Assembly (NCBI GenBank): GCA_039583705.1
Contig: JAVKSM010000002.1
Coordinates: 1 to 63,176, forward strand
Reading direction: 5' to 3'
DNA from: Pseudonocardiaceae bacterium
GTDB taxonomy: Bacteria > Actinomycetota > Actinomycetes > Mycobacteriales > Pseudonocardiaceae
Length of the DNA stretch: 63,176 bases
Below are positions 6,580 through 63,112 of the stretch, one piece after another (the first letter of the stretch is position 1; each line of letters opens with the position of its first letter). Position numbers and translations under genes: made by a program. The notes below the pieces were generated by a model. The model was not told the origin of the DNA, searched no databases, and was given only the letters and a program-made list of their open reading frames with translations.

Positions 6580-7980
6580 ATGGCCGGTGGCAGCGGCGGC
6601 AACGCGGCGGACCTGTTGGTGATCTTCGGCATCACTGGGGATCTGGCCCGCAAGATGACGTTCCGCTCACTGTACCGGCTGGAGCGTCGCAAGCTTCTCG
6701 ACTGTCCGGTCTTGGGCGTGGCCGTTGACGACCTGTCCGTCGACCAGTTGGCCGAGCATGCCCGCAAGGCGATCGGCGACTCTGGTGAGAAGGTCGAGGA
6801 CGAGGTCTTCGACCGCTTGGCACGGCGGTTGGCCTACGTACCGGGTGATGTCATGGACGACGCGCTCTACCGCCGGCTCGCCGAGCGGATCGGTCGTCGT
6901 CACCGGCCGCTGTACTACCTGGAGATGCCCCCGTCGCTGTTCGGCCCGATCGTCGGACACCTCGGCGACGCCGGACTTGTCGAGCACGCACGCGTCGCCG
7001 TCGAGAAGCCGTTCGGACATGACCTCAGCTCGGCGCGCGAGCTGGACACCCGGTTGCACAACGTGCTGCGGGAGGACCAGATCCTGCGCGTGGACCACTT
7101 CCTGGGCAAGGAACCCGTCATCGAGCTGGAATACCTGCGGTTCGCCAACCTGGCGCTCGCGGAGGTGTGGGACCGCAAGAGCGTGTCCTGCGTCCAGATC
7201 ACGATGGCCGAAGACTTCGGCGTCGAGGATCGCGGCGGGTTCTACGATGCGGTCGGTGCGTTGCGTGACGTCGTCCAGAACCACCTGCTGCAGGTGCTCG
7301 GACTGGTCGCGATGGAGCCACCGGCCGGCGCCGGCGCCGATGAGCTGCGGGACAAGAAGGCCGAGGTGTTCCGGGCGATGCCAGCGGCCGACCCGCGGCA
7401 CTGCGTGCGGGGCCAGTACGACGGTTACACCGACGTGCCCGGGGTCGCGAACTCCTCGACCACCGAGACGTTCGTCGCGCTGCGCCTGGAAATCGACAAC
7501 TGGCGCTGGGCCGGAGTCCCGATCTTCCTGCGGGCCGGCAAGGCGCTGCCGGAACGGGTCACCGAGATCCGGCTGTTCCTGCGCCGGACGCCACGGCTGG
7601 CCTTCCTGCCCACACCGACACAGGTCGAACCCAACCAGATCGTGCTGCGGATCGACCCCGACCCGGGCCTGCGGTTGCAGATAGCCGCGAAGTCCGCTGA
7701 CTCGTGGCGGACCGTGCACCTGGACACCTCGTTCACCCAGGAACTCGGCGAACCCTTGGAACCGTACGAGCGGCTCCTGTATAGCGGGCTCATCGGCGAC
7801 CACCAACTCTTCGCCCGTGAGGACAGCGTCGAGGAAACCTGGCGCATCGTACAGCCGCTGCTCGACCACCCGTCGGAGATCCAGCCGTATCAGCGCGGAT
7901 CGTGGGGGCCGAGCGCGGCGGAGTCACTGGTCCGGGGCCATCACCGCTGGCAGCGCCCCTGGCTGGGCGACCGACGTTGA
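6580..7980 (+). CDS. zwf: glucose-6-phosphate 1-dehydrogenase
   Basis: 'VIFGITGDLARKM' dinucleotide motif, 'EKPFGHDL' and the 'RVDHFLGKE' active-site signature. An AAGGAGG RBS lies 7 nt upstream of the ATG. Confidence 0.95.
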   Translation: MAGGSGGNAADLLVIFGITGDLARKMTFRSLYRLERRKLLDCPVLGVAVDDLSVDQLAEHARKAIGDSGEKVEDEVFDRLARRLAYVPGDVMDDALYRRLAERIGRRHRPLYYLEMPPSLFGPIVGHLGDAGLVEHARVAVEKPFGHDLSSARELDTRLHNVLREDQILRVDHFLGKEPVIELEYLRFANLALAEVWDRKSVSCVQITMAEDFGVEDRGGFYDAVGALRDVVQNHLLQVLGLVAMEPPAGAGADELRDKKAEVFRAMPAADPRHCVRGQYDGYTDVPGVANSSTTETFVALRLEIDNWRWAGVPIFLRAGKALPERVTEIRLFLRRTPRLAFLPTPTQVEPNQIVLRIDPDPGLRLQIAAKSADSWRTVHLDTSFTQELGEPLEPYERLLYSGLIGDHQLFAREDSVEETWRIVQPLLDHPSEIQPYQRGSWGPSAAESLVRGHHRWQRPWLGDRR

Positions 7981-11111: not shown

Positions 11112-12584
11112 ATGACCGTCGTCCTCGTGCTGCTCGCGCTGCTCCCGCTGGTGGCCGCGGCCCTCTCGCTGGTTCCGGGACGGGCGGTGGCGCCCGCGGT
11201 CAGCGTCGGGGTTGGCCTCGCCTGCCTCGGCCTCGCCCTCACGCTGGTTCCCGCGGCGGCGCGGGGCCCGGTCGGGATCGGGTTCCTGCGGGTCGACGCG
11301 ATCTCGGTGGTCTTCCTCCTCGGCACGGCTTTCCTCTACGCCGCCACCGCCGTCTACTCCGTCGGCTACCTGCGCGGTGAGCGGGAGCGGGAGGGTTGGG
11401 TGCGTTACTCCCGGTGGTTCTGGACCGGGCTCGACCTGTTCGCCTGGGCCATGCTGTGTGCCCCGCTGATGGACGGCCTGGCGCTGCTGTGGATCGCCGT
11501 GGAGATCACCACCGTGGTCTCCGCACTGCTCGTCGCCCTGGACGGCACCCGGCGCAGCGCCGAGGCGGCGTGGAAGTACGTGCTCATCGCGTCGTCTGGG
11601 CTGGGCATCGCCCTGCTCGCCACGATCGTCATGTACCACGCGGGCGCCTCGGTGCTCGGGGCGTCCTACGACCTGTCCTTCCCGCCCCTTCTCAGCGCCG
11701 GGTCGGCCCTGCCACATCCCGCGGTGGAGTTGGCGTTCGTACTCGCGGTGGTCGGGTTCGGCACCAAGGTCGGGCTGTTCCCGGTGCACACCTGGCTGCC
11801 CGACGCGCACTCCGAGGCGCCGACCCCGGTCTCCGCGCTGCTGTCCGGCTCGCTGCTCGCGGTGAGCTTCTACGCCGTGCTGCGTTACTACCAGGTCGCG
11901 GTCGCCACGCTGGGCGGCAGCTTCCCCCGGGTCGTGCTGCTCGTCTTCGGCATGCTCTCGCTGCTGCTCGCCGCGGTGTACCTGGTCGAGCAGCGCAACC
12001 TCAAGCGGCTGCTGGCCTACTCCAGTGTCGAGCACATGGGCATCCTGGCGATCGGGGTGTCGTTCGGCGCGCCGCTCGCCTTCGCCGGGGTGCTGCTGCA
12101 CGTGCTGTCCCACGCCGCGGCCAAGGGCAACGCGTTCTTCGGTGCCGGCGTGCTGGTACGGGCTTGCGGCAGCAAACAGATCGGACGGATCCGAGGTGGC
12201 TTCGACCGGCTGCCCTGGACCGCGCCGCTGTTCCTCTTCACGATCCTCGCGCTGTCCGCGATGCCGCCCTTCGGACTGTTCCGCAGCGAGTTCCAGATCG
12301 TCGCCGGTGGCCTGGGCTCGGCCCACGACGCTCCGGCGGCGGCCATGGTCGCCTTGGTCACGCTGGCCTTCCTCGGATTGTCACTGGCCACCACGCGGAT
12401 GCTGTTCCTCCCCGGCGCGGATTCGCCGGGAGCCGCGGCTGCGCCGCGGGGCGAGCCGAGCGCGTGGATGGTGGCGCCGATGCTCGTCGGGATCCTCGCG
12501 CTGCTGGTGCTGGGCTTGCACCCGCCGGACGCGCTCACCGACCTCCTCACCCGTGGTGCCGCCGAGCTGGGAGGGGCGCGGTGA
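11112..12584 (+). CDS. HyfF/HycQ-like antiporter-type subunit (NuoM/N family)
   Basis: 'FPVHTWLPDAHSEAPTPVSALLSG' and 'KRLLAYSSVEHMG' are NuoL/M/N-family motifs. Start ATG 11112 lies within a longer shadow ORF. Confidence 0.85.
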   Translation: MTVVLVLLALLPLVAAALSLVPGRAVAPAVSVGVGLACLGLALTLVPAAARGPVGIGFLRVDAISVVFLLGTAFLYAATAVYSVGYLRGEREREGWVRYSRWFWTGLDLFAWAMLCAPLMDGLALLWIAVEITTVVSALLVALDGTRRSAEAAWKYVLIASSGLGIALLATIVMYHAGASVLGASYDLSFPPLLSAGSALPHPAVELAFVLAVVGFGTKVGLFPVHTWLPDAHSEAPTPVSALLSGSLLAVSFYAVLRYYQVAVATLGGSFPRVVLLVFGMLSLLLAAVYLVEQRNLKRLLAYSSVEHMGILAIGVSFGAPLAFAGVLLHVLSHAAAKGNAFFGAGVLVRACGSKQIGRIRGGFDRLPWTAPLFLFTILALSAMPPFGLFRSEFQIVAGGLGSAHDAPAAAMVALVTLAFLGLSLATTRMLFLPGADSPGAAAAPRGEPSAWMVAPMLVGILALLVLGLHPPDALTDLLTRGAAELGGAR

Positions 12585-14086
12585 GCCTGTCGACGGCGCA
12601 GCGCCCGGCCCGGGACGCGGTCGGGGCACTGCAGGCCAACCTGTGCGCCCGGCTCGCCGAGGGCCAGCGGTTCGCCGGACTGCTCGGGCGCGGTGATCCC
12701 GCCTCCGGGACCGTGCTCACCGCGCTCGTGGCACACGGCGGCGAGCTCACCCCGCTGCGCGCCGCCCTGCCTGCCGGGGTCACCCGGTACCCCGCCCTGA
12801 CGCCGAGCGTCCCGGCGGCGTTCTGGTACGAGCGGGCGATCCACGACCTGGTCGGCCTGGTGCCCGAGGGGCACCCTCGGCTGGACCCGCTCGTGCTGCC
12901 GCACCGCGACGACGAAGGCCCGCTGCCCCACCCGGGCGCTGCCGGTCAGCCCGCGCGGATCGACCCCGACGAGCGGGCGCTCTCGACGCACGTGTCCGGC
13001 CCGGGCGTGTTCACCATCCCGCACGGCCCGGTGCGCTCGGGGGTGTTCGAGTCCGTCGAGTACCTGGTGGAGACCGCGGGTGAGGACATCCTCCACCTGC
13101 GGATCCGCCCGCACGCCAAGCACCGCGGGGTGCAGAAGCGGTTCGAGGGCATGACCGTGCAGGACGGGGTGCTGCTGGCGGAACGGGTCGAGGGGATCGC
13201 CTCGGTGGCCCACGCGCTGGCCTTCGCGCACGCCGTCGAGACCATCGCGGACGTGGCTGTGCCGCCCGCCGCCGAGCTGCTGCGGGTGCTGCACGCCGAG
13301 TTGGAGCGGGTCGCCAACCACCTCGACGTCCTCGCCAAGCTCACCGACGCCGCCGGGCTGGCCGTGGCCACCGCGCGGTTCACGCTGCACAAGGAACGCG
13401 CCCTGCGGTTCGCCGGTGCGCTGTGCGGCAGCCGGTTCGGGCGCGGCGTCGTCGTGCCCGGTGGCGTGAGCGCGGCCCCCCGGCTGTCCGGCGACGACAT
13501 CGGTGCCGGGCTGGAGCGGTTGCGGCGCGCGGTCGACGGCGACGTGCGCGCGCTGCTGGGCACCTCGTCGTTCCTTGACCGCGTCCGCGGCACCGGGCCG
13601 CTCGCTGTCGAGCTCGCCCGCAGCCACGGCGCGCTCGGCCCGGTAGGCCGCGCCTCCGGGTGCGTCGAGGACTGCCGGGTCACGCGTCCCTACGACGGCT
13701 ACCGCCAGCTCGCGGCGCCACCGGTCCCGGCCCGCGAGGCGGGCGACGCGCAGGCCCGGACGCAGGTCCGCATCGAGGAGATCGGGGCGTCGTTCCGCCT
13801 CACCCACCAGGCGCTCGCCCGGCTGCCCACCTGCGACGAGGCCCGCCTGCAGGTCGCGGTGCCAGCGGTGGCGGGGCAGGCGCTCGGCTGGGCGGAGGCA
13901 CCGCAGGGCGAGGTGCTCTACCTGCTACAGGTCGACGGCGAGGGTCGGATCCGCTACTGCGCGCCGCGGTCGGCGTCCTTCCACAACCTGGTGCTGTTCC
14001 CGTCGACGTTCGTCGGTGACATCCTCACCGACTTCCCCTTCATCGAGGCCAGTTTCGGGCTGTCCGTCGCGGGGGTGGTGATGTAG
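12581..14086 (+). CDS. HycE/NuoCD-like 'large subunit' lacking all four Ni-Fe cysteine ligands
   Basis: It has a NuoC-like part ('AAFWYERAIHDLVGLVPEGHPRLDPL') and a NuoD/HycE-like part. The N-terminal ligand motif reads 'AERVEGIASVAH' instead of RxCGxCxxxH. The C-terminus reads 'FIEASFGLSVAGVVM' instead of DPCxxCxx(H/R). GTGA start/stop overlap with the upstream gene. Confidence 0.85.
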   Translation: MSLSTAQRPARDAVGALQANLCARLAEGQRFAGLLGRGDPASGTVLTALVAHGGELTPLRAALPAGVTRYPALTPSVPAAFWYERAIHDLVGLVPEGHPRLDPLVLPHRDDEGPLPHPGAAGQPARIDPDERALSTHVSGPGVFTIPHGPVRSGVFESVEYLVETAGEDILHLRIRPHAKHRGVQKRFEGMTVQDGVLLAERVEGIASVAHALAFAHAVETIADVAVPPAAELLRVLHAELERVANHLDVLAKLTDAAGLAVATARFTLHKERALRFAGALCGSRFGRGVVVPGGVSAAPRLSGDDIGAGLERLRRAVDGDVRALLGTSSFLDRVRGTGPLAVELARSHGALGPVGRASGCVEDCRVTRPYDGYRQLAAPPVPAREAGDAQARTQVRIEEIGASFRLTHQALARLPTCDEARLQVAVPAVAGQALGWAEAPQGEVLYLLQVDGEGRIRYCAPRSASFHNLVLFPSTFVGDILTDFPFIEASFGLSVAGVVM

Positions 14087-55406: not shown

Positions 55407-55482
<76 letters not shown>

Positions 55483-55540
55483 TCACCGCAGGTCAACGGC
55501 TTACATGGACAGTCTGCTATCCTCCCGAGAGATCGAACTT

Positions 55541-55560
55541 GACGGAAACTAGACGGAAAC
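55541..55560 (+). repeat. GACGGAAAC direct repeat (x2, 2-nt spacer) just upstream of the integrase gene
   Basis: GACGGAAAC-TA-GACGGAAAC at 55541-55560, in the AT-richer spacer between tRNA-Lys and int. Confidence 0.6.
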
Positions 55561-55579
55561 CTCCTTCCGAGGAGTCGTC

Positions 55580-56809
55580 ATGGCTCGTCCGCCGCTCGCT
55601 CTCGGGCACCATGGAACGGTCAAGCTCTCCCGTGAGGACGGGCAGTGGGTGGCTCGCTGCCGGGTCCGCGACCTCGATGGCGTGACCCGCCGTGTCGCAC
55701 GCTGGGGATCCTCACGGGCAGCGGCGCAGCGTGCCTTGCAAGACGAGCTGCGCCAGCGCCGCGGTGAGCGCACCGAACCGCTCCGGCCGCACTCCCGGTT
55801 CAGCGACGCCGCGGCCATATGGATGGAGAAGATCAGAGAGCGGCGAGAAGACTCCACCGCCGACACTTACCGACACTGGCTTGAACACGTCGTGCTCCCC
55901 CAGCTCGGCGCGCTGCGCCTCGCCGAGTGCGACGTCGTCCAGCTCGATGCCTTCTTCACCCGCCTGGAACGCGCTCGACGCGCTGTCGAGCGCGAGGACG
56001 GCTCAACCTCCGAGGTGGTCCGCTATGCGGCGAACACCCGACGCACCATTCGCGCCATCGTGGCCGGCGTCCTGCAGCAGGCCGTGCTCCACCAAGCCCT
56101 CGCAGCCAACCCGGTCCGCGAGCTGGAGCGCATCGAGTCCCCCAGGAGCCACCGCAGGGCCCCGCCCCGTGGGTTGACCGCCGAAGAGCGGCACCGGCTG
56201 CTCGCCTTCATCGACACTGACAAGGTTGCTATCGGCGCCGACCTACCCGACCTGATCCGCTTGGGCATCGGCTCCGGGCTGCGCATCGGTGAGCTGTGCG
56301 CGGTGCGCTGGCTCGACCTCAACCTGAAGGGCATCCCCGTCGTCAGCGAGCACGACATGCGCTTGGTGCCGGTGGTGGCAGTGCGGCAGAACGTCTACCC
56401 CGTCAAGGGCAAGGGTCTGGTCGTGCATGGCGGCAAGACCGCCACGGCGCTGCGCATTGTCCCCCTCCCCGAGTTCGTCATCACCCGGTTGCGCGTGCGG
56501 TGGCACGGCGACGAGAACCCGGAATGGCCGGTGTTCGCCGCCGCAGGCCGCGACGGACAACCCACTTACCGCTGGCCCTCCAACGTCCGGCGCAGCGTGC
56601 GTGCGGTCCGCGAGCAGGTGTGCCTGGAGTGGATGACCCCGCACACCTGGCGACGCACCTACGCCACCATCCTTGACGACGAGATGAGCTTGACCGACCG
56701 CGTCAAGGCCGACCTCATGGGCCAGGCAAAATTCCTCAAAGACACCTACGTCAGCCGTGGGGAGCTTCACCCCGACGCCGCGGTGTTTCTCGACGCGGCA
56801 TTGCGTTAA
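55580..56809 (+). mobile_element. tyrosine-type site-specific recombinase (phage/ICE integrase) next to tRNA-Lys
   Basis: 409 aa. 'GLRIGELCAVRW' (box I Arg) and 'TPHTWRRTYATIL' (HxxR), with a C-terminal Tyr in 'KDTYVSRG'. Starts 98 nt after the tRNA. Confidence 0.85.
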
Positions 56810-57408: not shown

Positions 57409-58272
57409 TCAACCGGGCCTGCGCGCACAGCGCGACGCTGGTTCGGCGCGCTGAGACCAGGAGAACACCCCGCGCACCGCGGTGCGCGCATCGCCGCCGA
57501 CATCCAGCAGCTCCAACCGCCGCTGCTCATCACCCAACTCGCCCACCAGGTGGGCCAGGCTGGTGGCCGGGCGGGACGCGGCGAGCTCGGCGGCCACCCG
57601 CAACGCCAACGGCAGCCGGGCGCACAGCTGCGCGAGCGTGGCGGCGGCCTCGGGTTCGGCCCGCACCCGCTCCCCGATCAGCGCGCCAGCAGGGCGACCG
57701 CATCGGCGTGCGGCAGCAGGTCCAGGTCCAGGCGGCGGGCGCCGTGGCGGCCCACCAACCCCGCCAGCGAGTTCCGGCTGCTCACCACCACCACGCTCGA
57801 CGCCGTGCCGGGCAGCAGCGGGCGGATCTGCTCCACCGAGGAGGCGTTGTCCAACACCACCAGGATCCGCCGCCCAGCCAGCAGGCTGCGGTAGGCGGCA
57901 GCGCGTTCCTCCACCTCCAGCGGGATGGCTTGGCCGGCCACCCCCACGCGTGCAGGAACCCGCCAGCGCATCGGCCGCCGACAGCGGTTGGTGTACACCC
58001 GCTGGTCCGCCCCGACGAGCCGCCGCTGGCGCCTGGGCTCGACGTCGCCAGCGTCGTCATCAACACAGCGACGGGCCTGCCGCAGTGAGCTGCAGCAGCA
58101 GCGGGAGCTCGTCCTCCTCGACCCGCGGCCCGCCGAGCAGCCCATCATCGACCAACCGGCGCACCGCCGCGCGCAGCTCCTCCTCAGTTACCGCTCCCCG
58201 GGCGCCTGTGCGGCGCGCTCGTTGAACCAGAGCAGGAAGGCCCTGGCACAGGGCGGCCTTGCGGGGGTCCAT
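57409..58272 (-). pseudogene. NB-ARC/AfsR-SARP-type STAND ATPase, frameshifted debris
   Basis: 'YRSLLAGRRILVVLDNASSVEQIRPLLPGTASSVVVVSSRNSLAGL' and 'LCARLPLALRVAAELAA' lie in different frames. No P-loop is found, and there are at least two frame changes. Confidence 0.6.
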
Positions 58273-58537
58273 GCCCCAGAACGCTACTGTGCTGCCCCGA
58301 CGGTCTCAGTCCGCCGCGGCCGGATTACCGGCGCGACGTGGTAAGCCGCTGTATCACGTAGCGACTGAAGCGAGTTGCATCGGGTGCGACAACTCGCGCT
58401 CTGCTCGCCAGCCGGCGGGTCAGACGGCCACTGTGACGCCCGAGACGCTCCAAAGCCGAAACGGAAGGACAACGATCGGAGCCGCTGGCCGGGCGTCCTG
58501 ACCCGTGCTCGGGCGGTCAGCGAGGCTCGTGCCGCGA

Positions 58538-59689
58538 TCACGGACCGACGGAGAGCCGCTGAAACACCGGACGACAGGTCGTACCCCAGTTACGGCAGAT
58601 GGTATCGAATCCATTGTTTCCGTCGTACAGGCTTCCGGCGCCGTCGGTTGTTGTTACCCAGCGAGATAGACCGACGGCTGACTGGAGGTATCTGTAGTCA
58701 GTGTAGAGCCCGTAGTCCCTGCCACCGATGTCGAGGTCAACGTAGTTGTCGACGAGAATCTCCTCGTCCGTGAAGATATGTCCCTCGCCCGGGGCGGGGG
58801 CGGCTATTACCATGCCTACGGATACACGGAAGCTATAAAGTGCCGAGCCGTTGTGTAGATGGATCCGAAGACGCCAGGTTCCGTCTGGGAAAACTGACAA
58901 GTGCTCGTTTCCTGAAACGGAGACACCATGAAGGCCTACATCCGGGAAGGTGAGCGCATTGACATCGTATTGGAGCATGTGCACCAGCGTGTAGGTATCA
59001 CCTGGAGTCGAGTAAATCCAGCCGCCTTCAAAGTTGGTTGTAGTAGGGAAGTTATGAGCGTGCGGAGTCACGTCCGATATCGGGAATCCCAGCCATCCCG
59101 ATTCGAGGCCTTCCGCCTGGTACTTGATGAATGTGTCGCCGTAGACGATGTGAGTTCCCCGTGTAGGGTGGGAAACGATGACCGCGTTTTGGAAGATGGC
59201 GAGCTGGCCCGTCCCCGTGGTGGAGTCATGGATGTCACTAGTCGGGAAGCCGGCCTGCCAATTTCCTCCCGTGTCGTTATCCCTCCACTTGGAGAAGAAC
59301 TCACCCCACAGAGCGTGGGCCCCCGTGCCAGAGGTCCAGAGAATGACACCATTCGCAAAATCCTCTTGCATACCACCGTGGTCCTCGACGTACGGGAGGT
59401 CAACAGGGCAGCCGAGCGGAGAGTACTGGGACGTAGGGTGTCGAGAACCTGCGCTGGCGACGTATTCGTTCAAAATTGGCCCAGCGTGCATCACTATTCC
59501 GCAGTCCGTTTCATTCTGGGCGGGACCGGGCACGCAGACAATTCCAAAACCCGTGCGCCTGCAGTCGTCGGCGTGAGCTTGAGAGGCATTCCCCACCGTG
59601 ATGGCAGCACTGAACATAACGATGAGGAGCATCACCACCCAACCGGGACGCAACCGCGTGCCCACCCAACGCAATCGCCTGATATCCAT
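58538..59689 (-). CDS. secreted LGFP-repeat protein, paralogue 1 (383 aa)
   Basis: The signal peptide ends 'ASQAHA-DD'. It has three LGFP-type repeats ('PLGCP', 'QAGFPTSD', 'GWLGFPISD') and then a ~170-aa C-terminal domain ending in a Cys pair (CRNWGTTC). AT-richer than its surroundings. Confidence 0.75.
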   Translation of the reverse strand: MDIRRLRWVGTRLRPGWVVMLLIVMFSAAITVGNASQAHADDCRRTGFGIVCVPGPAQNETDCGIVMHAGPILNEYVASAGSRHPTSQYSPLGCPVDLPYVEDHGGMQEDFANGVILWTSGTGAHALWGEFFSKWRDNDTGGNWQAGFPTSDIHDSTTGTGQLAIFQNAVIVSHPTRGTHIVYGDTFIKYQAEGLESGWLGFPISDVTPHAHNFPTTTNFEGGWIYSTPGDTYTLVHMLQYDVNALTFPDVGLHGVSVSGNEHLSVFPDGTWRLRIHLHNGSALYSFRVSVGMVIAAPAPGEGHIFTDEEILVDNYVDLDIGGRDYGLYTDYRYLQSAVGLSRWVTTTDGAGSLYDGNNGFDTICRNWGTTCRPVFQRLSVGP

Positions 59690-59697
59690 GTGACTTC
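59081..59697. repeat. ~0.6-kb direct repeat, copy A (5' half of LGFP paralogue 1)
   Basis: Near-identical to 60275-60891. Identity stops about 8 nt upstream of the start codons and decays after the 'GWLGFP' codons. Confidence 0.85.
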
Positions 59698-59764
59698 ACG
59701 ATCCAATCAATGTTGGTTGCTGTACGGCCTGGACTAAGCGCCCATTAGTTGCAACTCGGCAGGA

Positions 59765-60883
59765 TCAGTAATTGAAATTAGGATTTCCATCAAGTGGAGT
59801 AAGAACCTTGAAGCAAGATTTCCTCCAATTGGCACAGGCCGACATTCCGGGGCCGATTGAGCCGCCATCCGATTCCGAGGTAGCTGAGGTGATCAGAGTA
59901 GTCGGTGCCTGGATATCGATATAATTGTCCTCGATAATTTCATCGCGACCCCAAAAATCGAAGTCCCCATTTTCTCCAAAACCATCCGAGGCGAATACCA
60001 GGCCAATCTCTGACGCAGTGCTGGAAAGCACGAAAGAGGCAGCTGGCACGCTGTCGTAGCCGTAGAAGTGGCCCCAGAAGTGGTAGGTCCCGTCCGGCGT
60101 CACCGTCAGATGCATATTCCCTCCTCCCCCATCGCCGACACTGAGGGTATCCCGATCGAAGTGCAGGGAGTATTGCAGCGTGTAGGCCCCCCTTTTCGCG
60201 TCCCAATAGATCTGCGATCTTTCGAACTCGACATACTTTGTCTTCCCGTCAGCCACGGTCACCACATCTGTCAACGGAAACCCTAGCCACCCCGATTCGA
60301 GGCCTTCCGCCTGGTACTTGACGAAAACGTCGCCGTAGACGATGTGAGTTCCCCGTGTAGGGTGGGAAATGATGACCGCGGTTTGGAAGTTGGCGAGCTG
60401 GCCCGTCCCCGTGGTGGAGTCATGGATGTCACTAGTCGGGAAGCCGGCCTGCCAATTTCCTCCCGTGTCGTTATCCCTCCACTTGGAGAAGAACTCACCC
60501 CACAGAGCGTGGGCCCCCGTGCCAGAGGTCCAGAGAATGACACCATTCGCAAAATCCTCTTGCATACCACCGTGGTCCTCGACGTACGGGAGGTCAACAG
60601 GGCAGCCGAGCGGAGAGTACTGGGACGTAGGGTGTCGAGAACCTGCGCTGGCGACGTATTCGTTCAAAATTGGCCCAGCGTGCATCACTATTCCGCAGTC
60701 CGTTTCATTCTGGGCGGGACCGGGCACGCAGACAATTCCAAAACCCGTGCGCCTGCAGTCGTCGGCGTGAGCTTGAGAGGCATTCCCCACCGTGATGGCA
60801 GCACTGAACATAACGATGAGGAGCATCACCACCCAACCGGGACGCAACCGCGTGCCCACCCAACGCAATCGACTGATATTCAT
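59765..60883 (-). CDS. secreted LGFP-repeat protein, paralogue 2 (372 aa)
   Basis: The first ~165 aa are identical to paralogue 1 except for 2 residues. The C-terminal domain is diverged but collinear ('HLTVTPDGTYHF', 'IEDNYIDI', 'CANWRKSC'). Confidence 0.75.
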   Translation of the reverse strand: MNISRLRWVGTRLRPGWVVMLLIVMFSAAITVGNASQAHADDCRRTGFGIVCVPGPAQNETDCGIVMHAGPILNEYVASAGSRHPTSQYSPLGCPVDLPYVEDHGGMQEDFANGVILWTSGTGAHALWGEFFSKWRDNDTGGNWQAGFPTSDIHDSTTGTGQLANFQTAVIISHPTRGTHIVYGDVFVKYQAEGLESGWLGFPLTDVVTVADGKTKYVEFERSQIYWDAKRGAYTLQYSLHFDRDTLSVGDGGGGNMHLTVTPDGTYHFWGHFYGYDSVPAASFVLSSTASEIGLVFASDGFGENGDFDFWGRDEIIEDNYIDIQAPTTLITSATSESDGGSIGPGMSACANWRKSCFKVLTPLDGNPNFNY

Positions 60884-60891
60884 GTGACCTT
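60275..60891. repeat. ~0.6-kb direct repeat, copy B (5' half of LGFP paralogue 2)
   Basis: See copy A. The offset between the copies is 1,194 bp. Confidence 0.85.
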
Positions 60892-61289
60892 CTTCCTAAC
60901 TAAGGCCGAAATTGGTTTGTACCCACCCAAGAACCCATGTTCGTCTGCGTAGAGCACCGTCGCGCGCGATGGCTTATCGACTATCGGGTAGCGTCGAAAG
61001 CGGTCCGCCACGGCGCGACGTCGCTGACGCGATGTCCGATGCACAGCGTGTACACATTTCTGCGCCTTCTCATCTGCTCCTGGTAGAGAGAAGACTAGAC
61101 ACGGCAGGCGTGGTGACGCCTCGGCAGGAACACCCATTCTCAGCTGGCAGGCCTGCGGGGCGATGGGTAGTTGTACCCACGGTCAGGCCAGGCCATGTCG
61201 CCGGCACGAACCGAGCACTCGACGCCGATCGCAACATCCGCGCCCGTCCCATGTCTAATTATGGCCTGTACCGCTCCAGTCGGCGCCTA

Positions 61290-61440
61290 TCGCGACGGAG
61301 CTGGCCAGTTCCTTCTTCTCCGCGCTCGTCAGGCGTGTCTCGCTGCCAGCCTCGTCGGCGTCGGCCTGGGTCATCCAGTTCCGCAGGCACGAGTCGGAGA
61401 TGCCTAGATCCTTGGCCAACTCGTTGTGCGCAGCCTCAGG
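61290..61440 (-). mobile_element. IS3-family transposase OrfA remnant
   Basis: 'ELAKDLGISDSCLRNWMTQADADEAGSETRLTSAEKKEL' is the IS3/IS911 OrfA HTH region. 'QLRRDRRRLER' continues in another frame, and no OrfB follows. Confidence 0.55.
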
Positions 61441-63112
61441 CCAGACCGTGGTCGAAGGCGAAGGCGGTCGCCGCGGTCCGGGTCGCCACACCGAGCTTGC
61501 TGAGGATGTTGCTCACGTGCCGGTCGACCGTGCGCTCACTCAGAACCAGACGAGCCGCGATGGCACGGTTGGTACGGCCGGTGGCGACGAGCCCGAGCAC
61601 CTGCGCCTCCCGCGAACTCAACCCCCCCGGCAGGCCGATCCGCTGGTGCGCTCCGGTCCCTGGCTCGACGGTGGTGTTCCGCAACGCCGCCAGAGCTGCC
61701 TCGGCCGCCGCCCGGTGCGCGGTGGCCGCCTCCTGGTCTCCCAGCGCCGCGCAGGCGCGTCCGAGCAGGAATCGAGCTTGCGCGGCCTCGTAGGGCGCCT
61801 GCAGCGACGTCCAACAACCCCAGGCATCACGCAGCGCGACCCCGGCGTCGGCGGCGTCCCCGCCAGCGAGGGCAACCGCACCGCTGGCATGCCGCGCCGC
61901 GGCCCGCAAACCCTGGGCGGGCCAGCGGGCCGCTAACTCGGCCAGCTCCCGGGCGGCCTCGGCGGCCTCGGCGGCCTCGGCGGGCTCGTCCGCCGCGAGG
62001 AACACCTCCACAGCGGCGGGAAGCAGATGAGCTCGCCGCAGCGGATCCTCGGCCACCGCTACGGCGCGCCGCAGGGCCGCCAGCGCGACCTGGCCACGGT
62101 GCTGCTGCAGGTGCAATCGGGCGAGGCCGGGCATCGGGTCGTGGCCATCCCGCTGCGCGGTGAGGTATGCCCGCTCGGCCTCGTCGGTCCGGCCCAACCG
62201 CTGCAGCGCCTCACCCTGCTGGTAAGCCGCCGCCGCCGCGGCGGCGGCGTGCCCGTCCCGCTCGGCGCACCGCGCGGCCGAGCGGGCCTCCAGCAAGGAA
62301 TCGTGCCAATGCCCGCGCCGGAGCAGCACCTCCGCCCGGTGGACCAGGCACTGCCCGCTGAACGGCACCAGCTCCGGCTGCTCGTCACACCAAGCCGACA
62401 GCGCCGCCGTCCATTCCGCGGCCCGATCGAACGCACCGACCTCCTGGCACCCGTCGACAACGCTGCACGCCACGTTCCCCGTCAACACCGGCGACCTCAA
62501 CCCCGCCGGAAGCACCTCGACGAAAACCTCGTCGAGCAACGCAAGCCCGTCGTGGAGCCGCTCCAAACGCAGCAGCGCGCGGCCCTGACTGTGCCGAGCA
62601 AAGGCAACGAGGTCACCCTCGTCATGCCGTCGACCGATCTCCTCGACCGACCGCGCCACCTCGAACGTGTCCTGGTAGCGGCCGGCCGCATAGTGCGCAC
62701 GGGCCACCGGCAGAAGCAGATACCCCCGCTCAGCGCAGTCATCCTCCCCGGACTGCTGCAGCAGCCGCGCCGCACGACCCAGCCAACCACCCGCCGCCGC
62801 CGGTGCGCCCCTCCCGGCAAGTGTCAGACCGATCCAGAACGCCGCGCGAGCCGCCGCACGCGCCGCACCCTCCCCCACATGCGCGTGAAACGCCCGCTCA
62901 TACGCCCCCACACAACCCGCCGGATCACCACTGAGAAAAGCCGCCTCCGCCAGCATCGCGAGATCCTCGGGACCGAGCCCACCGGCGGCGTCGGCGGCAC
63001 GCAGAGCCTGCACCGCCTGCTGCCACGCGCGGCCCCGATGAGCTACTCGCCCCGCGTTGCGGAGCTCGTCCACCGCCGTCACCCCCCGCGCACCACAGAA
63101 AACGCACAACAT
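61436..63112 (-). CDS. TPR-rich LuxR-family transcriptional regulator
   Basis: C-terminal 'LSSREAQVLGLVATGRTNRAIAARLVLSERTVDRHVSNILSKLGV'. The long Ala/Leu-rich helical-repeat N-terminus has no P-loop. Confidence 0.8.
   Translation of the reverse strand: MLCVFCGARGVTAVDELRNAGRVAHRGRAWQQAVQALRAADAAGGLGPEDLAMLAEAAFLSGDPAGCVGAYERAFHAHVGEGAARAAARAAFWIGLTLAGRGAPAAAGGWLGRAARLLQQSGEDDCAERGYLLLPVARAHYAAGRYQDTFEVARSVEEIGRRHDEGDLVAFARHSQGRALLRLERLHDGLALLDEVFVEVLPAGLRSPVLTGNVACSVVDGCQEVGAFDRAAEWTAALSAWCDEQPELVPFSGQCLVHRAEVLLRRGHWHDSLLEARSAARCAERDGHAAAAAAAAYQQGEALQRLGRTDEAERAYLTAQRDGHDPMPGLARLHLQQHRGQVALAALRRAVAVAEDPLRRAHLLPAAVEVFLAADEPAEAAEAAEAARELAELAARWPAQGLRAAARHASGAVALAGGDAADAGVALRDAWGCWTSLQAPYEAAQARFLLGRACAALGDQEAATAHRAAAEAALAALRNTTVEPGTGAHQRIGLPGGLSSREAQVLGLVATGRTNRAIAARLVLSERTVDRHVSNILSKLGVATRTAATAFAFDHGLA

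What the first reader, a model, noticed from the sequence alone, without database searches (positions are those of the whole stretch)
58538..60891. Tandem secreted LGFP-repeat paralogues: near-identical signal peptide and LGFP half, diverged cysteine-capped C-terminal half, in an AT-richer patch
The two minus-strand genes are 1,194 bp apart. They share about 0.6 kb of almost identical 5' sequence: 2 substitutions in the first ~165 codons, with identity ending ~8 nt upstream of the ATG. After 'GWLGFP' they diverge strongly while keeping a collinear skeleton (PDGT..H, I/VxDNYxD, C-x-NW-xxx-C).

The DNA is conspicuously less GC-rich than the rest of the window, for example 'attgaaattaggatttccatcaagtggagtaagaacc', and lies inside the integrase island.

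Constant-N/variable-C tandem arrays are the hallmark of polymorphic surface or toxin-like proteins, diversifying under selection or exchanging cassettes by gene conversion. I cannot assign the C-terminal domain to any family.
Basis: partly seen in the sequence, partly recalled or inferred. Interest (0 to 1): 0.6.

Follow-up and report, generated by a model that had tools for sequence, protein, structure and literature searches.

The report
Tandem wall-binding paralogues with converted 5' halves
Two neighbouring genes for secreted, cell-wall-binding (LGFP-repeat) proteins are old duplicates whose first ~0.5-0.6 kb was recently overwritten by gene conversion, and their diverged ends belong to a rare unnamed protein domain family; this is a clean textbook case, not a toxin system.

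Summary
Gene A (58538-59689, minus strand, 383 aa) and gene B (59765-60883, minus strand, 372 aa) lie 1,194 bp apart. They are identical from 5 nt upstream of the ATG to codon 164, apart from substitutions in codons 2 and 4.

Synonymous divergence is 0 over codons 5-164, 0.04 over codons 165-197, and saturated from codon 198 onward. The break falls inside the third LGFP repeat, not at a domain border. This is the pattern of recent gene conversion between old tandem paralogues.

Each protein has a Sec-type signal peptide, three scored LGFP repeats, and a C-terminal domain of about 140 aa. The two C-terminal domains are 33% identical to each other. They are very divergent members of an unnamed family with no Pfam or PDB match. 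That family usually follows lectin-like or wall-binding modules and ends in a hydrophobic tail. Both genes here lack the tail and carry a C-x-NW-x3-C loop instead.

- No immunity-like ORF, orphan cassette or further paralogue was found, so the polymorphic-toxin reading is not supported.
- GC3 is 0.65-0.66, against 0.82-0.91 in neighbouring genes, which points to horizontal acquisition.
- No close relative was found in any collection searched.
- The biochemical function of the C-terminal domain remains unknown.

The parts
59765..60883 (-). Gene B, 372 aa: signal peptide, LGFP repeats, divergent C-terminal domain. A purine-rich AGGAAGAAGG sequence ends 7 nt upstream of the ATG.
   Evidence: ORF and translation. 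Pfam LGFP 107.9 bits against a cut-off of 22. Upstream sequence read.
58538..59689 (-). Gene A, 383 aa, same architecture. It lies 75 nt downstream of gene B and is probably co-transcribed, as no terminator-like site was found in the spacer.
   Evidence: ORF and translation. Pfam LGFP 87.7 bits. Terminator scan.
60293..60888 (-). Converted (homogenised) tract, copy in gene B. It runs from 5 nt upstream of the ATG to about codon 197. Codons 5-164 (60392-60871) are identical to gene A.
59099..59694 (-). Converted (homogenised) tract, copy in gene A. Codons 5-164 (59198-59677) are identical to gene B.
60761..60883 (-). Predicted Sec signal peptide of gene B (residues 1-41). It has an Arg-rich n-region, the hydrophobic core GWVVMLLIVMFSAAITVG, and a likely A-H-A / DD cleavage site. 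The same sequence lies in gene A at 59567-59689.
   Evidence: Read from the translations and judged by eye; no signal-peptide predictor was available. The poor AF2 model does give a helix over residues 15-46.
60176..60610 (-). LGFP repeat region of gene B (residues ~92-236, three scored repeats). The same region in gene A is 58982-59416. The third repeat (from codon ~199) is already in the diverged part.
   Evidence: Pfam PF08310. The PHROG endolysin profile matches only this part. Relatives' LGFP proteins match residues ~90-240 only.
59768..60172 (-). C-terminal domain of gene B (residues 238-372). It is a divergent member of the unnamed 'GVPVGG...DGsYnFSGHFHdSG...GTFEPGSRD' family. It has no hydrophobic tail and ends with C350-x-NW-x3-C357.
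58541..58981 (-). C-terminal domain of gene A (residues 237-383), of the same family and 33% identical to that of gene B. It ends with C365-x-NW-x3-C372.
59690..59764 (.). 75-nt spacer between gene B's stop and gene A's start. It is unique sequence with GC 0.52, and no ORF lies within it.
58540..61250 (.). Low-GC patch (GC 0.50-0.64 in 200-nt windows) that carries both genes and the upstream region of gene B.
55407..56809 (+). tRNA-Lys(CUU) at 55407-55482 and a tyrosine integrase gene at 55580-56809: the left end of the variable region. Between it and gene A lie a dsRBD fragment and a minus-strand ORF (57678-58148) with no Pfam match, which an earlier unchecked note calls decayed STAND/NB-ARC debris. 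An IS3 OrfA stump lies at 61255-61491.
   Evidence: Earlier notes e1-4276032, e1-4276033 and e1-4276035.

Best explanation
Genes A and B are an old tandem duplicate of a single gene for a secreted, cell-envelope-associated protein.

**Protein architecture.** Each protein has a Sec-type signal peptide, a Cys-containing N-terminal stretch, three LGFP repeats, and a C-terminal beta-rich domain of about 140 aa. LGFP repeats are proposed, non-covalent cell-wall-binding modules. The C-terminal domain belongs to an unnamed family that is usually attached behind lectin-like or wall-binding modules.

**Lineage-specific changes.** In this lineage the domain lost the family's hydrophobic C-terminal tail. 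It also lost some of the family's invariant residues and gained a C-x-NW-x3-C loop, presumably closed by a disulfide. Both copies share these changes, so the duplication came after them.

**Divergence, then conversion.** The copies diverged until synonymous sites were saturated. Non-reciprocal homologous recombination (gene conversion) between them then overwrote the 5' part, from the start codon to about codon 164-197. The stepped 3' border (dS 0, then 0.04, then saturated) suggests at least two events. The 5' half therefore appears to be evolving in concert. The 3' half has probably diverged too far to recombine, or is kept different by selection.

**Origin.** Both the conserved and the diverged parts keep GC3 of about 0.58-0.70 in a genome with GC3 of about 0.85. 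The pair was therefore probably acquired as a unit from a lower-GC donor, into the variable region beside tRNA-Lys and the integrase.

**Shown and inferred.**
- Shown: the mosaic, the LGFP repeats, the family membership, the composition, and the absence of further copies.
- Inferred: secretion, wall binding, disulfides, direction and number of conversion events, co-transcription, and any role of the C-terminal domain. My guess is an exposed binding module held on the wall by the LGFP repeats.
For: **Mosaic structure**
- There are 0 differences at 114 synonymous sites in codons 5-164.
- Codons 165-197 give dS 0.04 and dN 0.08.
- Synonymous difference is 0.73-0.81 per site from codon 198 on.
- The break lies inside the third LGFP repeat.
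- Flanks upstream of the two ATGs are unrelated, and the spacer is unique.

**The two copies are true paralogues along their whole length**
- The C-terminal parts are 33% identical and collinear.
- They share features absent from the family: no hydrophobic tail, and the C-x-NW-x3-C loop.

**Domain family**
- A profile of the two C-terminal parts, searched against 1.84 billion representative proteins, finds P0008, P0009 and P0010 at E = 2.8e-5, 2.6e-4 and 5.7e-4.
- hhalign against a 123-member family alignment gives 96.3% probability over 91 columns.
- P0002 aligns collinearly over residues 106-323 with P0079, which has an N-terminal hydrophobic segment that looks like a signal peptide, three LGFP repeats and the family domain (E = 2e-19).
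- A Pseudonocardiaceae protein (locus L018) also has LGFP repeats followed by the domain.
- The family has at least 168 proteins, all annotated 'hypothetical'.
- It is found at 107 loci in many phyla.

**LGFP as a wall-binding module**
- Pfam scores are 87.7 and 107.9 bits.
- The same region matches the C-terminal part of a phage endolysin profile.
- The literature proposes wall anchoring for the repeat (PMC3314691; repeat defined in PMC2447325).

**Foreign origin**
- GC and GC3 values.
- tRNA-Lys and the integrase lie nearby.
- No homologue was found in 300 genomes of the same family, apart from three distant domain relatives.

**Full-length gene model**
- The LGFP match starts at residue 92, upstream of the M107 start that the public gene calls used (P0003 at 277 aa, P0004 at 266 aa).
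Against: The tandem order and the exact 100% identity of the tract are therefore untested against reads. Graph simplification could have turned, say, 98% identity into 100%.

**Another odd repeat exists.** Contig C92 holds the only other internal repeat over 500 bp, and it looks odd. Assembler behaviour at repeats is a real concern.

**Family membership is weak on one side.** The family HMM scores the two proteins at only 22 and 18 bits. Invariant family residues are missing: the second His in gene B, and the GTFEPGSR motif in both, though gene B keeps a degenerate trace.

**No usable structure.** The AF2 models have pLDDT of 36-37.

**No functional evidence.** There is no expression or localisation evidence, and no signal-peptide predictor was run.

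**Too few sequences.** With only two sequences, neither the direction of conversion nor the selection regime can be established.
Confidence: 0.75

Rival explanations
1. Polymorphic surface or toxin system. A constant N-terminal delivery or anchoring part carries exchangeable C-terminal effector cassettes, diversified by selection or cassette exchange, with cognate immunity genes.
For: The layout has a constant N-terminal half and a variable C-terminal half, in tandem, in a foreign-composition patch near an integrase. The differences in the near-identical part are mostly non-synonymous: both changes in codons 1-164, and about 6 of the 7 nucleotide changes in codons 165-197. The domain family is often fused to lectin-like targeting modules.
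Against: - The two C-terminal parts are homologous and collinear (33% identity, one family), not unrelated modules.
- The break in identity lies inside an LGFP repeat, not at a linker.
- No ORF fits in the 75-nt spacer, and no credible small ORF lies downstream of gene A.
- The genome has no orphan cassettes or extra copies.
- There is no LXG, WXG, Rhs, PAAR or CdiA-type trafficking domain and no toxin-domain match.
- Family members elsewhere are single-copy, with no conserved neighbour.
- The excess of non-synonymous changes is not significant given the small counts.
Confidence: 0.07
2. Assembly artefact. The metagenome assembler collapsed or mis-joined reads from two strains or two loci. On this view the tandem arrangement, or the perfect identity of the 5' halves, is not real.
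For: The genome is a short-contig MAG (237 contigs, N50 21 kb, 100-N scaffold gaps elsewhere). A near-exact repeat of about 480-600 bp is hard for short reads. Another suspicious 683-bp exact repeat with unrelated flanks exists on C92. Reads could not be examined.
Against: - The window has no N gap.
- The two copies have different upstream sequences, a unique 75-nt spacer, and copy-specific substitutions at both edges of the tract: codons 2 and 4, and codons 165-205. An allelic collapse would not create these.
- An X-R-B'-s-R-A'-Y graph has a single traversal.
- Even if identity was rounded up by bubble popping, the halves would still need to be about 97% or more identical, against saturated divergence downstream. 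The mosaic conclusion therefore survives.
Confidence: 0.1
3. No conversion. A recent partial duplication or recombination placed a copy of one gene's 5' half in front of an unrelated-age homologous 3' fragment (a chimeric gene birth). Alternatively, strong purifying selection alone keeps the N-terminal halves identical.
For: The end state, identical 5' and old 3', is the same as after conversion. The 5' border of identity coincides with the start codon.
Against: - Purifying selection cannot hold 114 synonymous sites identical while the neighbouring synonymous sites are saturated.
- Both genes keep a complete, anciently diverged third LGFP repeat (codons 198-236, synonymous difference 0.73 per site). 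Both were therefore already full LGFP-plus-domain genes before the 5' parts became identical.
- A graded border (0, then 0.04, then saturated) fits repeated conversion better than a single illegitimate join.
- Mechanistically, homologous replacement of one paralogue's 5' part by the other's is gene conversion.
Confidence: 0.06

Closest known systems
LGFP-repeat proteins (Pfam PF08310), for example Corynebacterium glutamicum PS1/mycoloyltransferase C-terminal repeats, and actinophage endolysins with LGFP C-terminal domains (Barnyard gp39)
   Same: Both proteins have three tandem ~54-aa LGFP repeats scoring well above the Pfam threshold. The same region matches an endolysin profile's C-terminal part. 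The repeat is proposed to anchor proteins to the actinobacterial cell wall (PMC3314691).
   Different: Here the repeats sit N-terminal to the other domain rather than C-terminal to an enzyme. No catalytic domain is recognisable; the nearest LGFP relatives, at 32-33% identity, carry YkuD or GH25 domains instead.
Unnamed domain family with consensus 'itFggGVPVGGwanLTlfsDGsYnFSGHFHdSGapsYn ... GTFEPGSRDdDWn ... aW..L ... hydrophobic tail', for example the Rhodococcus jostii hypothetical protein P0024 and the metagenomic LGFP fusion P0079
   Same: The first ~100 residues of the domain are collinear with the family (hhalign 96.3%). The overall order, N-terminal signal-peptide-like segment, LGFP repeats, then domain, is the same as in P0079, and the LGFP-then-domain order is shared with locus L018. 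The motif DG-T-[YW]-x-[FL]-x-x-H is kept.
   Different: - Both genes lack the family's hydrophobic C-terminal tail and have a Cys-x-NW-x3-Cys loop instead.
- Gene B has lost the second His of HxH.
- GTFEPGSR is absent in gene A and degenerate in gene B.
- The family HMM scores are only 18-22 bits.
- Family genes elsewhere are single-copy.
Concerted evolution of bacterial paralogues by gene conversion (for example tufA/tufB in Salmonella, or duplicated esx and PE/PPE genes in mycobacteria; from my own knowledge, not checked here)
   Same: A tract of a few hundred bp has zero synonymous divergence inside otherwise old paralogues, and its borders are unrelated to domain borders.
   Different: Only part of the gene is homogenised, and the rest is saturated. 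The pair sits in horizontally acquired DNA and has no known function.
Polymorphic toxin systems (CdiA-CT, Rhs, and LXG/WXG100 toxins with immunity genes)
   Same: The layout is superficially similar: a constant N-terminal half and a variable C-terminal half, in tandem.
   Different: The C-terminal parts are homologous to each other. There is no trafficking domain, no immunity ORF and no orphan cassettes.

Membership tests
LGFP repeat proteins (PF08310) | One or more LGFP repeats above Pfam's gathering score | tested here: met
   Scores are 87.7 bits (gene A) and 107.9 bits (gene B) against a cut-off of 22, with three stretches each.
LGFP repeat proteins (PF08310) | Extracytoplasmic location (signal peptide) and binding to the cell wall | not testable with these tools
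   The N-terminus looks like a Sec signal peptide: an Arg-rich n-region, an 18-residue hydrophobic core, and AHA/DD. Each protein has six Cys. No predictor or experiment was available.
Unnamed GVPVGG/GHFHdSG/GTFEPGSRD domain family | Significant profile similarity over the domain | tested here: met
   A profile of the A and B C-terminal parts finds family members at E = 2.8e-5 to 5.7e-4 in 1.84 billion proteins. hhalign gives 96.3% probability. P0002 aligns collinearly with P0079.
Unnamed GVPVGG/GHFHdSG/GTFEPGSRD domain family | Invariant residues: GVPVGG, H-x-H-x-SG, GT(F)E(P)GSR | tested here: not met
   - Gene A has GVSVSG and HLHNGS but no GTFEPGSR.
- Gene B has GGGG and HFYGYDS, so the second His is lost, and only a degenerate GFGENG-DFDFW.
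- The alignment of the second half of the domain is uncertain.
Unnamed GVPVGG/GHFHdSG/GTFEPGSRD domain family | Hydrophobic C-terminal tail at the very end of the protein | tested here: not met
   In most listed family members, at least 0.7 of the last 16 residues are hydrophobic by a crude count. Gene A ends in ...CRPVFQRLSVGP and gene B in ...CFKVLTPLDGNPNFNY.
Polymorphic toxin systems | Unrelated, exchangeable C-terminal toxin domains | tested here: not met
   The C-terminal parts are 33% identical, collinear, and of the same family. No toxin family match was found.
Polymorphic toxin systems | Immunity gene immediately downstream of each toxin gene | tested here: not met
   The 75-nt spacer has no internal ORF. 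Downstream of gene A there are only Arg/Ser-rich ORFs in high-GC DNA; the 85-aa one tested (58284-58541) has no Pfam match.
Polymorphic toxin systems | Dedicated trafficking domain (LXG, WXG100, PAAR, Rhs, TPS, etc.) and orphan cassettes | tested here: not met
   Only LGFP repeats are found in Pfam. The genome has only two copies by protein search and by domain-profile search.
Gene conversion between paralogues | A tract with far lower synonymous divergence than the rest of the same gene pair, with borders independent of domain borders | tested here: met
   dS is 0 over 114 synonymous sites, then 0.04, then saturated. The border lies inside LGFP repeat 3.
Gene conversion between paralogues | Both copies truly present in one genome | not testable with these tools
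Indirect support comes from the unique spacer, the different upstream flanks, and copy-specific substitutions at both tract edges.

The most novel reading that the evidence does not exclude
The unnamed C-terminal domain family could be a new kind of glycan-targeted, membrane- or envelope-active module. It has no Pfam or PDB match and occurs in many soil-bacterial phyla. It is nearly always the last domain, sits behind lectin-like beta-propellers or wall-binding repeats, and ends in a hydrophobic tail.

On this reading, the two genes here are tail-less, disulfide-capped, secreted derivatives. Selection would keep their exposed domains different, for example for binding different ligands or for evading phage or antagonists. 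Conversion would keep their anchoring halves identical.
Probability: 0.1. Interest if true: 0.6.

Novelty: new member of a known kind. Interest (0 to 1): 0.3.

Why it matters
This is a very clean natural example of partial concerted evolution. Within a single gene pair, synonymous divergence steps from zero to saturation inside a repeat. The locus is useful for teaching and for measuring conversion-tract length in Actinomycetota.

The work also defines a domain family that lacks a Pfam entry. The family has at least 168 proteins and occurs at 107 loci across many phyla. Its fusion partners are lectin-like or wall-binding modules, which hints at a role at the cell surface.

The analysis also corrects the public gene models. 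The 266-aa and 277-aa calls start at M107 and so lose the signal peptide and part of the first LGFP repeat.

It does not reveal a new mechanism.

Tried and rejected
- **Structure prediction.** Single-sequence AlphaFold2 of both proteins gave unusable models (pLDDT 36 and 37).
- **PDB sequence and profile searches.** Searches with the C-terminal alignment and with the family alignment gave nothing significant.
- **Family libraries.** Pfam, NCBIfam and PADLOC gave no match for the C-terminal domain. PHROGs matched only the LGFP part.
- **Word-indexed search of 5.8 billion proteins.** Each half of the proteins returned only the window's own gene calls, plus two LGFP enzymes at 32-33% identity.
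- **Metagenome contig scan with P0002.** No relatives were found.
- **Conserved-neighbour analysis of 80 family loci.** Only antisense shadows of the gene itself were found, with no partner gene.
- **att repeat of the tRNA-Lys 3' end.** Only chance-level matches were found.
- **Synteny of the LuxR gene with orn in relatives.** The two are not linked, so the right border of the island is undefined.
- **Literature search for the family motifs.** Nothing relevant was found.
- **Earlier notes of this scan, searched by sequence.** Nothing was found.
Full report
**1. The observation**

Two minus-strand ORFs occupy 58538-59689 (gene A, 383 aa, P0001) and 59765-60883 (gene B, 372 aa, P0002). Their starts are 1,194 bp apart.

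The DNA alignment and a codon-by-codon comparison show identity from 5 nt upstream of the ATG through codon 164. The only exceptions are codon 2 (GAT/AAT) and codon 4 (AGG/AGT). Five codons differ between 165 and 188. From codon 198 the sequences diverge quickly, and the proteins fall to 33% identity over the last ~140 residues.

The region is compositionally foreign. GC is 0.55-0.58 against 0.70-0.77 elsewhere. GC3 is 0.65-0.66 against 0.82-0.91 in orn, the integrase, the dsRBD fragment and the LuxR gene.

**2. Mosaic divergence**

| Codons | Synonymous divergence | Notes |
|---|---|---|
| 5-164 | dS = 0 | 0 differences at 114 synonymous sites |
| 165-197 | dS = 0.04 | dN = 0.08 |
| 198-236 | 0.73 differences per site | effectively saturated |
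| 237-end | 0.81 differences per site | effectively saturated |

These are Nei-Gojobori counts. Purifying selection cannot produce this step at synonymous sites. The two parts of the gene pair have very different ages.

The step lies inside the third LGFP repeat, which starts at about residue 199. It is therefore not a module junction. Both genes keep a complete, anciently diverged third repeat and a homologous C-terminal domain. Both were therefore full-length paralogues before their 5' parts became identical.

The simplest mechanism is non-reciprocal homologous recombination (gene conversion) between tandem paralogues. The graded 3' border suggests more than one event. The 5' border sits where homology between the two loci begins, at the start codon, which is where a conversion tract would have to end.

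**3. What the proteins are**

- **LGFP repeats.** Pfam finds three LGFP repeats in each protein, at 87.7 and 107.9 bits against a cut-off of 22. The same stretch matches the C-terminal part of a phage endolysin profile. The LGFP proteins of related genomes match only residues ~90-240. The repeat was defined computationally (PMC2447325). It is proposed to anchor proteins to the wall in Corynebacterium PS1 and in an actinophage endolysin (PMC3314691).
- **Signal peptide.** The N-terminus reads as a Sec signal peptide: an Arg-rich n-region, the core GWVVMLLIVMFSAAITVG, and AHA/DD. This was judged by eye only.
- **Cysteines.** Each protein has six Cys, four near the N-terminus and two in the terminal C-x-NW-x3-C. 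This fits an extracytoplasmic protein.
- **Gene models.** The public gene calls (277 and 266 aa) start at M107. That start would cut the first scored LGFP repeat, which begins at residue 92, so the long ORFs are the better models.

**4. The C-terminal domain**

No library recognises the domain.

- A profile of the two C-terminal parts was searched exhaustively against 1.84 billion representative proteins. Besides the window's own gene B call and three repeat-driven false positives, it found three proteins at E = 2.8e-5, 2.6e-4 and 5.7e-4.
- These three share the motif '...F..GVPVGG...LTv.pDGtY.FsGHFHdSG..sY...'.
- Using a Kutzneria member (P0011, found) as query gave 168 proteins, all annotated 'hypothetical' and none with a Pfam hit on the domain itself.
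- A degenerate-pattern scan of one genome per species gave 107 confirmed loci. They lie in Rhodococcus, Streptomyces, Nonomuraea, Microbispora, Frankia, Nostoc, Acidobacteriaceae, Bradyrhizobium, Gemmataceae, Dictyobacter and others.
- hhalign of the A and B profile against 123 family domains gives 96.3% probability over 91 columns.
- P0002 aligns in one collinear BLASTP segment (residues 106-323, E = 2e-19) with P0079. That metagenomic protein has an N-terminal signal-peptide-like segment, three LGFP repeats and the family domain.
- A 648-aa Pseudonocardiaceae protein also has LGFP repeats followed by the domain.

The whole architecture is therefore inherited, not assembled here.

The family domain is almost always C-terminal and ends in a short hydrophobic tail. 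Its N-terminal partners are LGFP, DUF346, tachylectin-like, fungal fucose-lectin-like and Vgb-lyase-like propellers, DUF1036, and Cys-rich repeats. Family genes are single-copy with no conserved neighbour. No solved structure matches by sequence.

Genes A and B are extreme members. The family HMM scores them at only 22 and 18 bits. They lack the tail and the GTFEPGSR motif, and gene B has lost the second His of HxH. Both share these derived features and the Cys loop. They are therefore each other's closest relatives, and the duplication followed those changes.

**5. Context and origin**

The gene order is as follows (earlier notes):

1. orn
2. tRNA-His
3. tRNA-Lys (55407-55482)
4. tyrosine integrase (55580-56809)
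5. an RNase III-like dsRBD fragment
6. a minus-strand ORF (57678-58148) with no Pfam match, which an earlier unchecked note describes as STAND-ATPase debris
7. gene A
8. gene B
9. an IS3 OrfA stump
10. a TPR-LuxR gene

There is no second att copy in the window. The LuxR gene is not linked to orn in relatives. The right border of the variable region therefore lies beyond the contig.

The genome is a 3.2-Mb, 237-contig MAG. Its family is Pseudonocardiaceae, because a same-family genome's contig matches a Kutzneria record. Neither gene has a close relative in 300 genomes of that family, in 5.8 billion clustered proteins, or in JGI metagenome contigs.

Both the identical and the saturated parts keep a low GC3. 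The duplication and divergence therefore probably predate the transfer, and the pair arrived as a unit. This is an inference.

**6. Rivals**

*Polymorphic toxin or cassette system (0.07).* The C-terminal parts are homologous to each other. There is no trafficking domain, no immunity-like ORF, and no orphan cassette. The non-synonymous bias of the few changes in the near-identical part rests on too few changes to be significant.

Against an artefact stand the unique spacer, the unrelated upstream flanks, and copy-specific substitutions at both tract edges. There is also no N gap in the window. The only other internal repeat over 500 bp in the assembly, on C92, has unrelated flanks and may be either an artefact or a fragment duplication. 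Some caution remains. Even if identity was rounded up, the mosaic stands.

*Chimeric gene birth, or selection alone (0.06).* These do not fit the synonymous-site pattern or the ancient third repeat present in both genes.

**7. Verdict**

The toxin or cassette part is not. The locus is a new member of known kinds: LGFP wall-associated proteins, and concerted evolution by conversion. The C-terminal domain belongs to an uncharacterised family whose function I could not determine. My best guess, at low confidence, is an exposed binding module held on the wall by the LGFP repeats. Interest is modest at 0.3.

Noticed in passing
Genome contig C92 (not in the window): 6684-7366 and 12154-12836; fetched as L102 (C92:5000-13959): A 683-bp segment is 100% identical at two places 5.5 kb apart, with sharp borders and unrelated flanks. 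Copy 1 lies inside a multicopper oxidase ORF (676 aa). Copy 2 is fused in frame upstream of a luciferase-like monooxygenase domain (595-aa ORF). It is either a recent fragment duplication creating a chimeric ORF or a misassembly. It is the only other internal repeat over 500 bp in the assembly.
   Followed up: partly
window 58538-59689 and 59765-60883: The public gene calls for both genes (277 aa and 266 aa, P0003 and P0004) start at M107. They omit the signal peptide, four Cys, and the beginning of the first scored LGFP repeat. The long ORFs are the better models.
   Followed up: yes
L018 (G055:C22, 1312-3258, minus strand) and L019 (G077:C264, 712-2151, minus strand): These are two further architectures of the unnamed domain in Pseudonocardiaceae. 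One is a 648-aa protein with a long N-terminal region, LGFP repeats, the domain, a hydrophobic stretch and a Cys-rich end. The other is a 479-aa protein in which a weakly matching domain (E = 8.8e-5) precedes a region containing HELTHVWD, an HExxH metalloprotease-like motif.
   Followed up: no
Family proteins P0024, P0043, P0120, P0032 etc.: Most short members of the family (~200-225 aa) have no N-terminal signal peptide. Instead they share a loosely conserved N-terminal stretch ('..L.EL......a.vSGGa.Ll'), together with the hydrophobic C-terminal tail. How, or whether, these reach the cell surface is unclear.
   Followed up: no
window 58060-58272 (minus strand): A 70-aa ORF (MDPRKAALCQGLPALVQRARRTG...EEELRAAVRRLVDDGLL...) looks like a fragment of a real protein.
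   Followed up: no
L101 (JGI contig carrying P0079): The closest full-architecture relative (P0079, LGFP repeats plus domain) is a single-copy gene. It lies about 5 kb from a large AAA_16-GerE (LuxR-type) regulator gene. The window's pair also has a TPR-LuxR gene about 0.55 kb upstream of gene B. This is probably coincidence.
   Followed up: no
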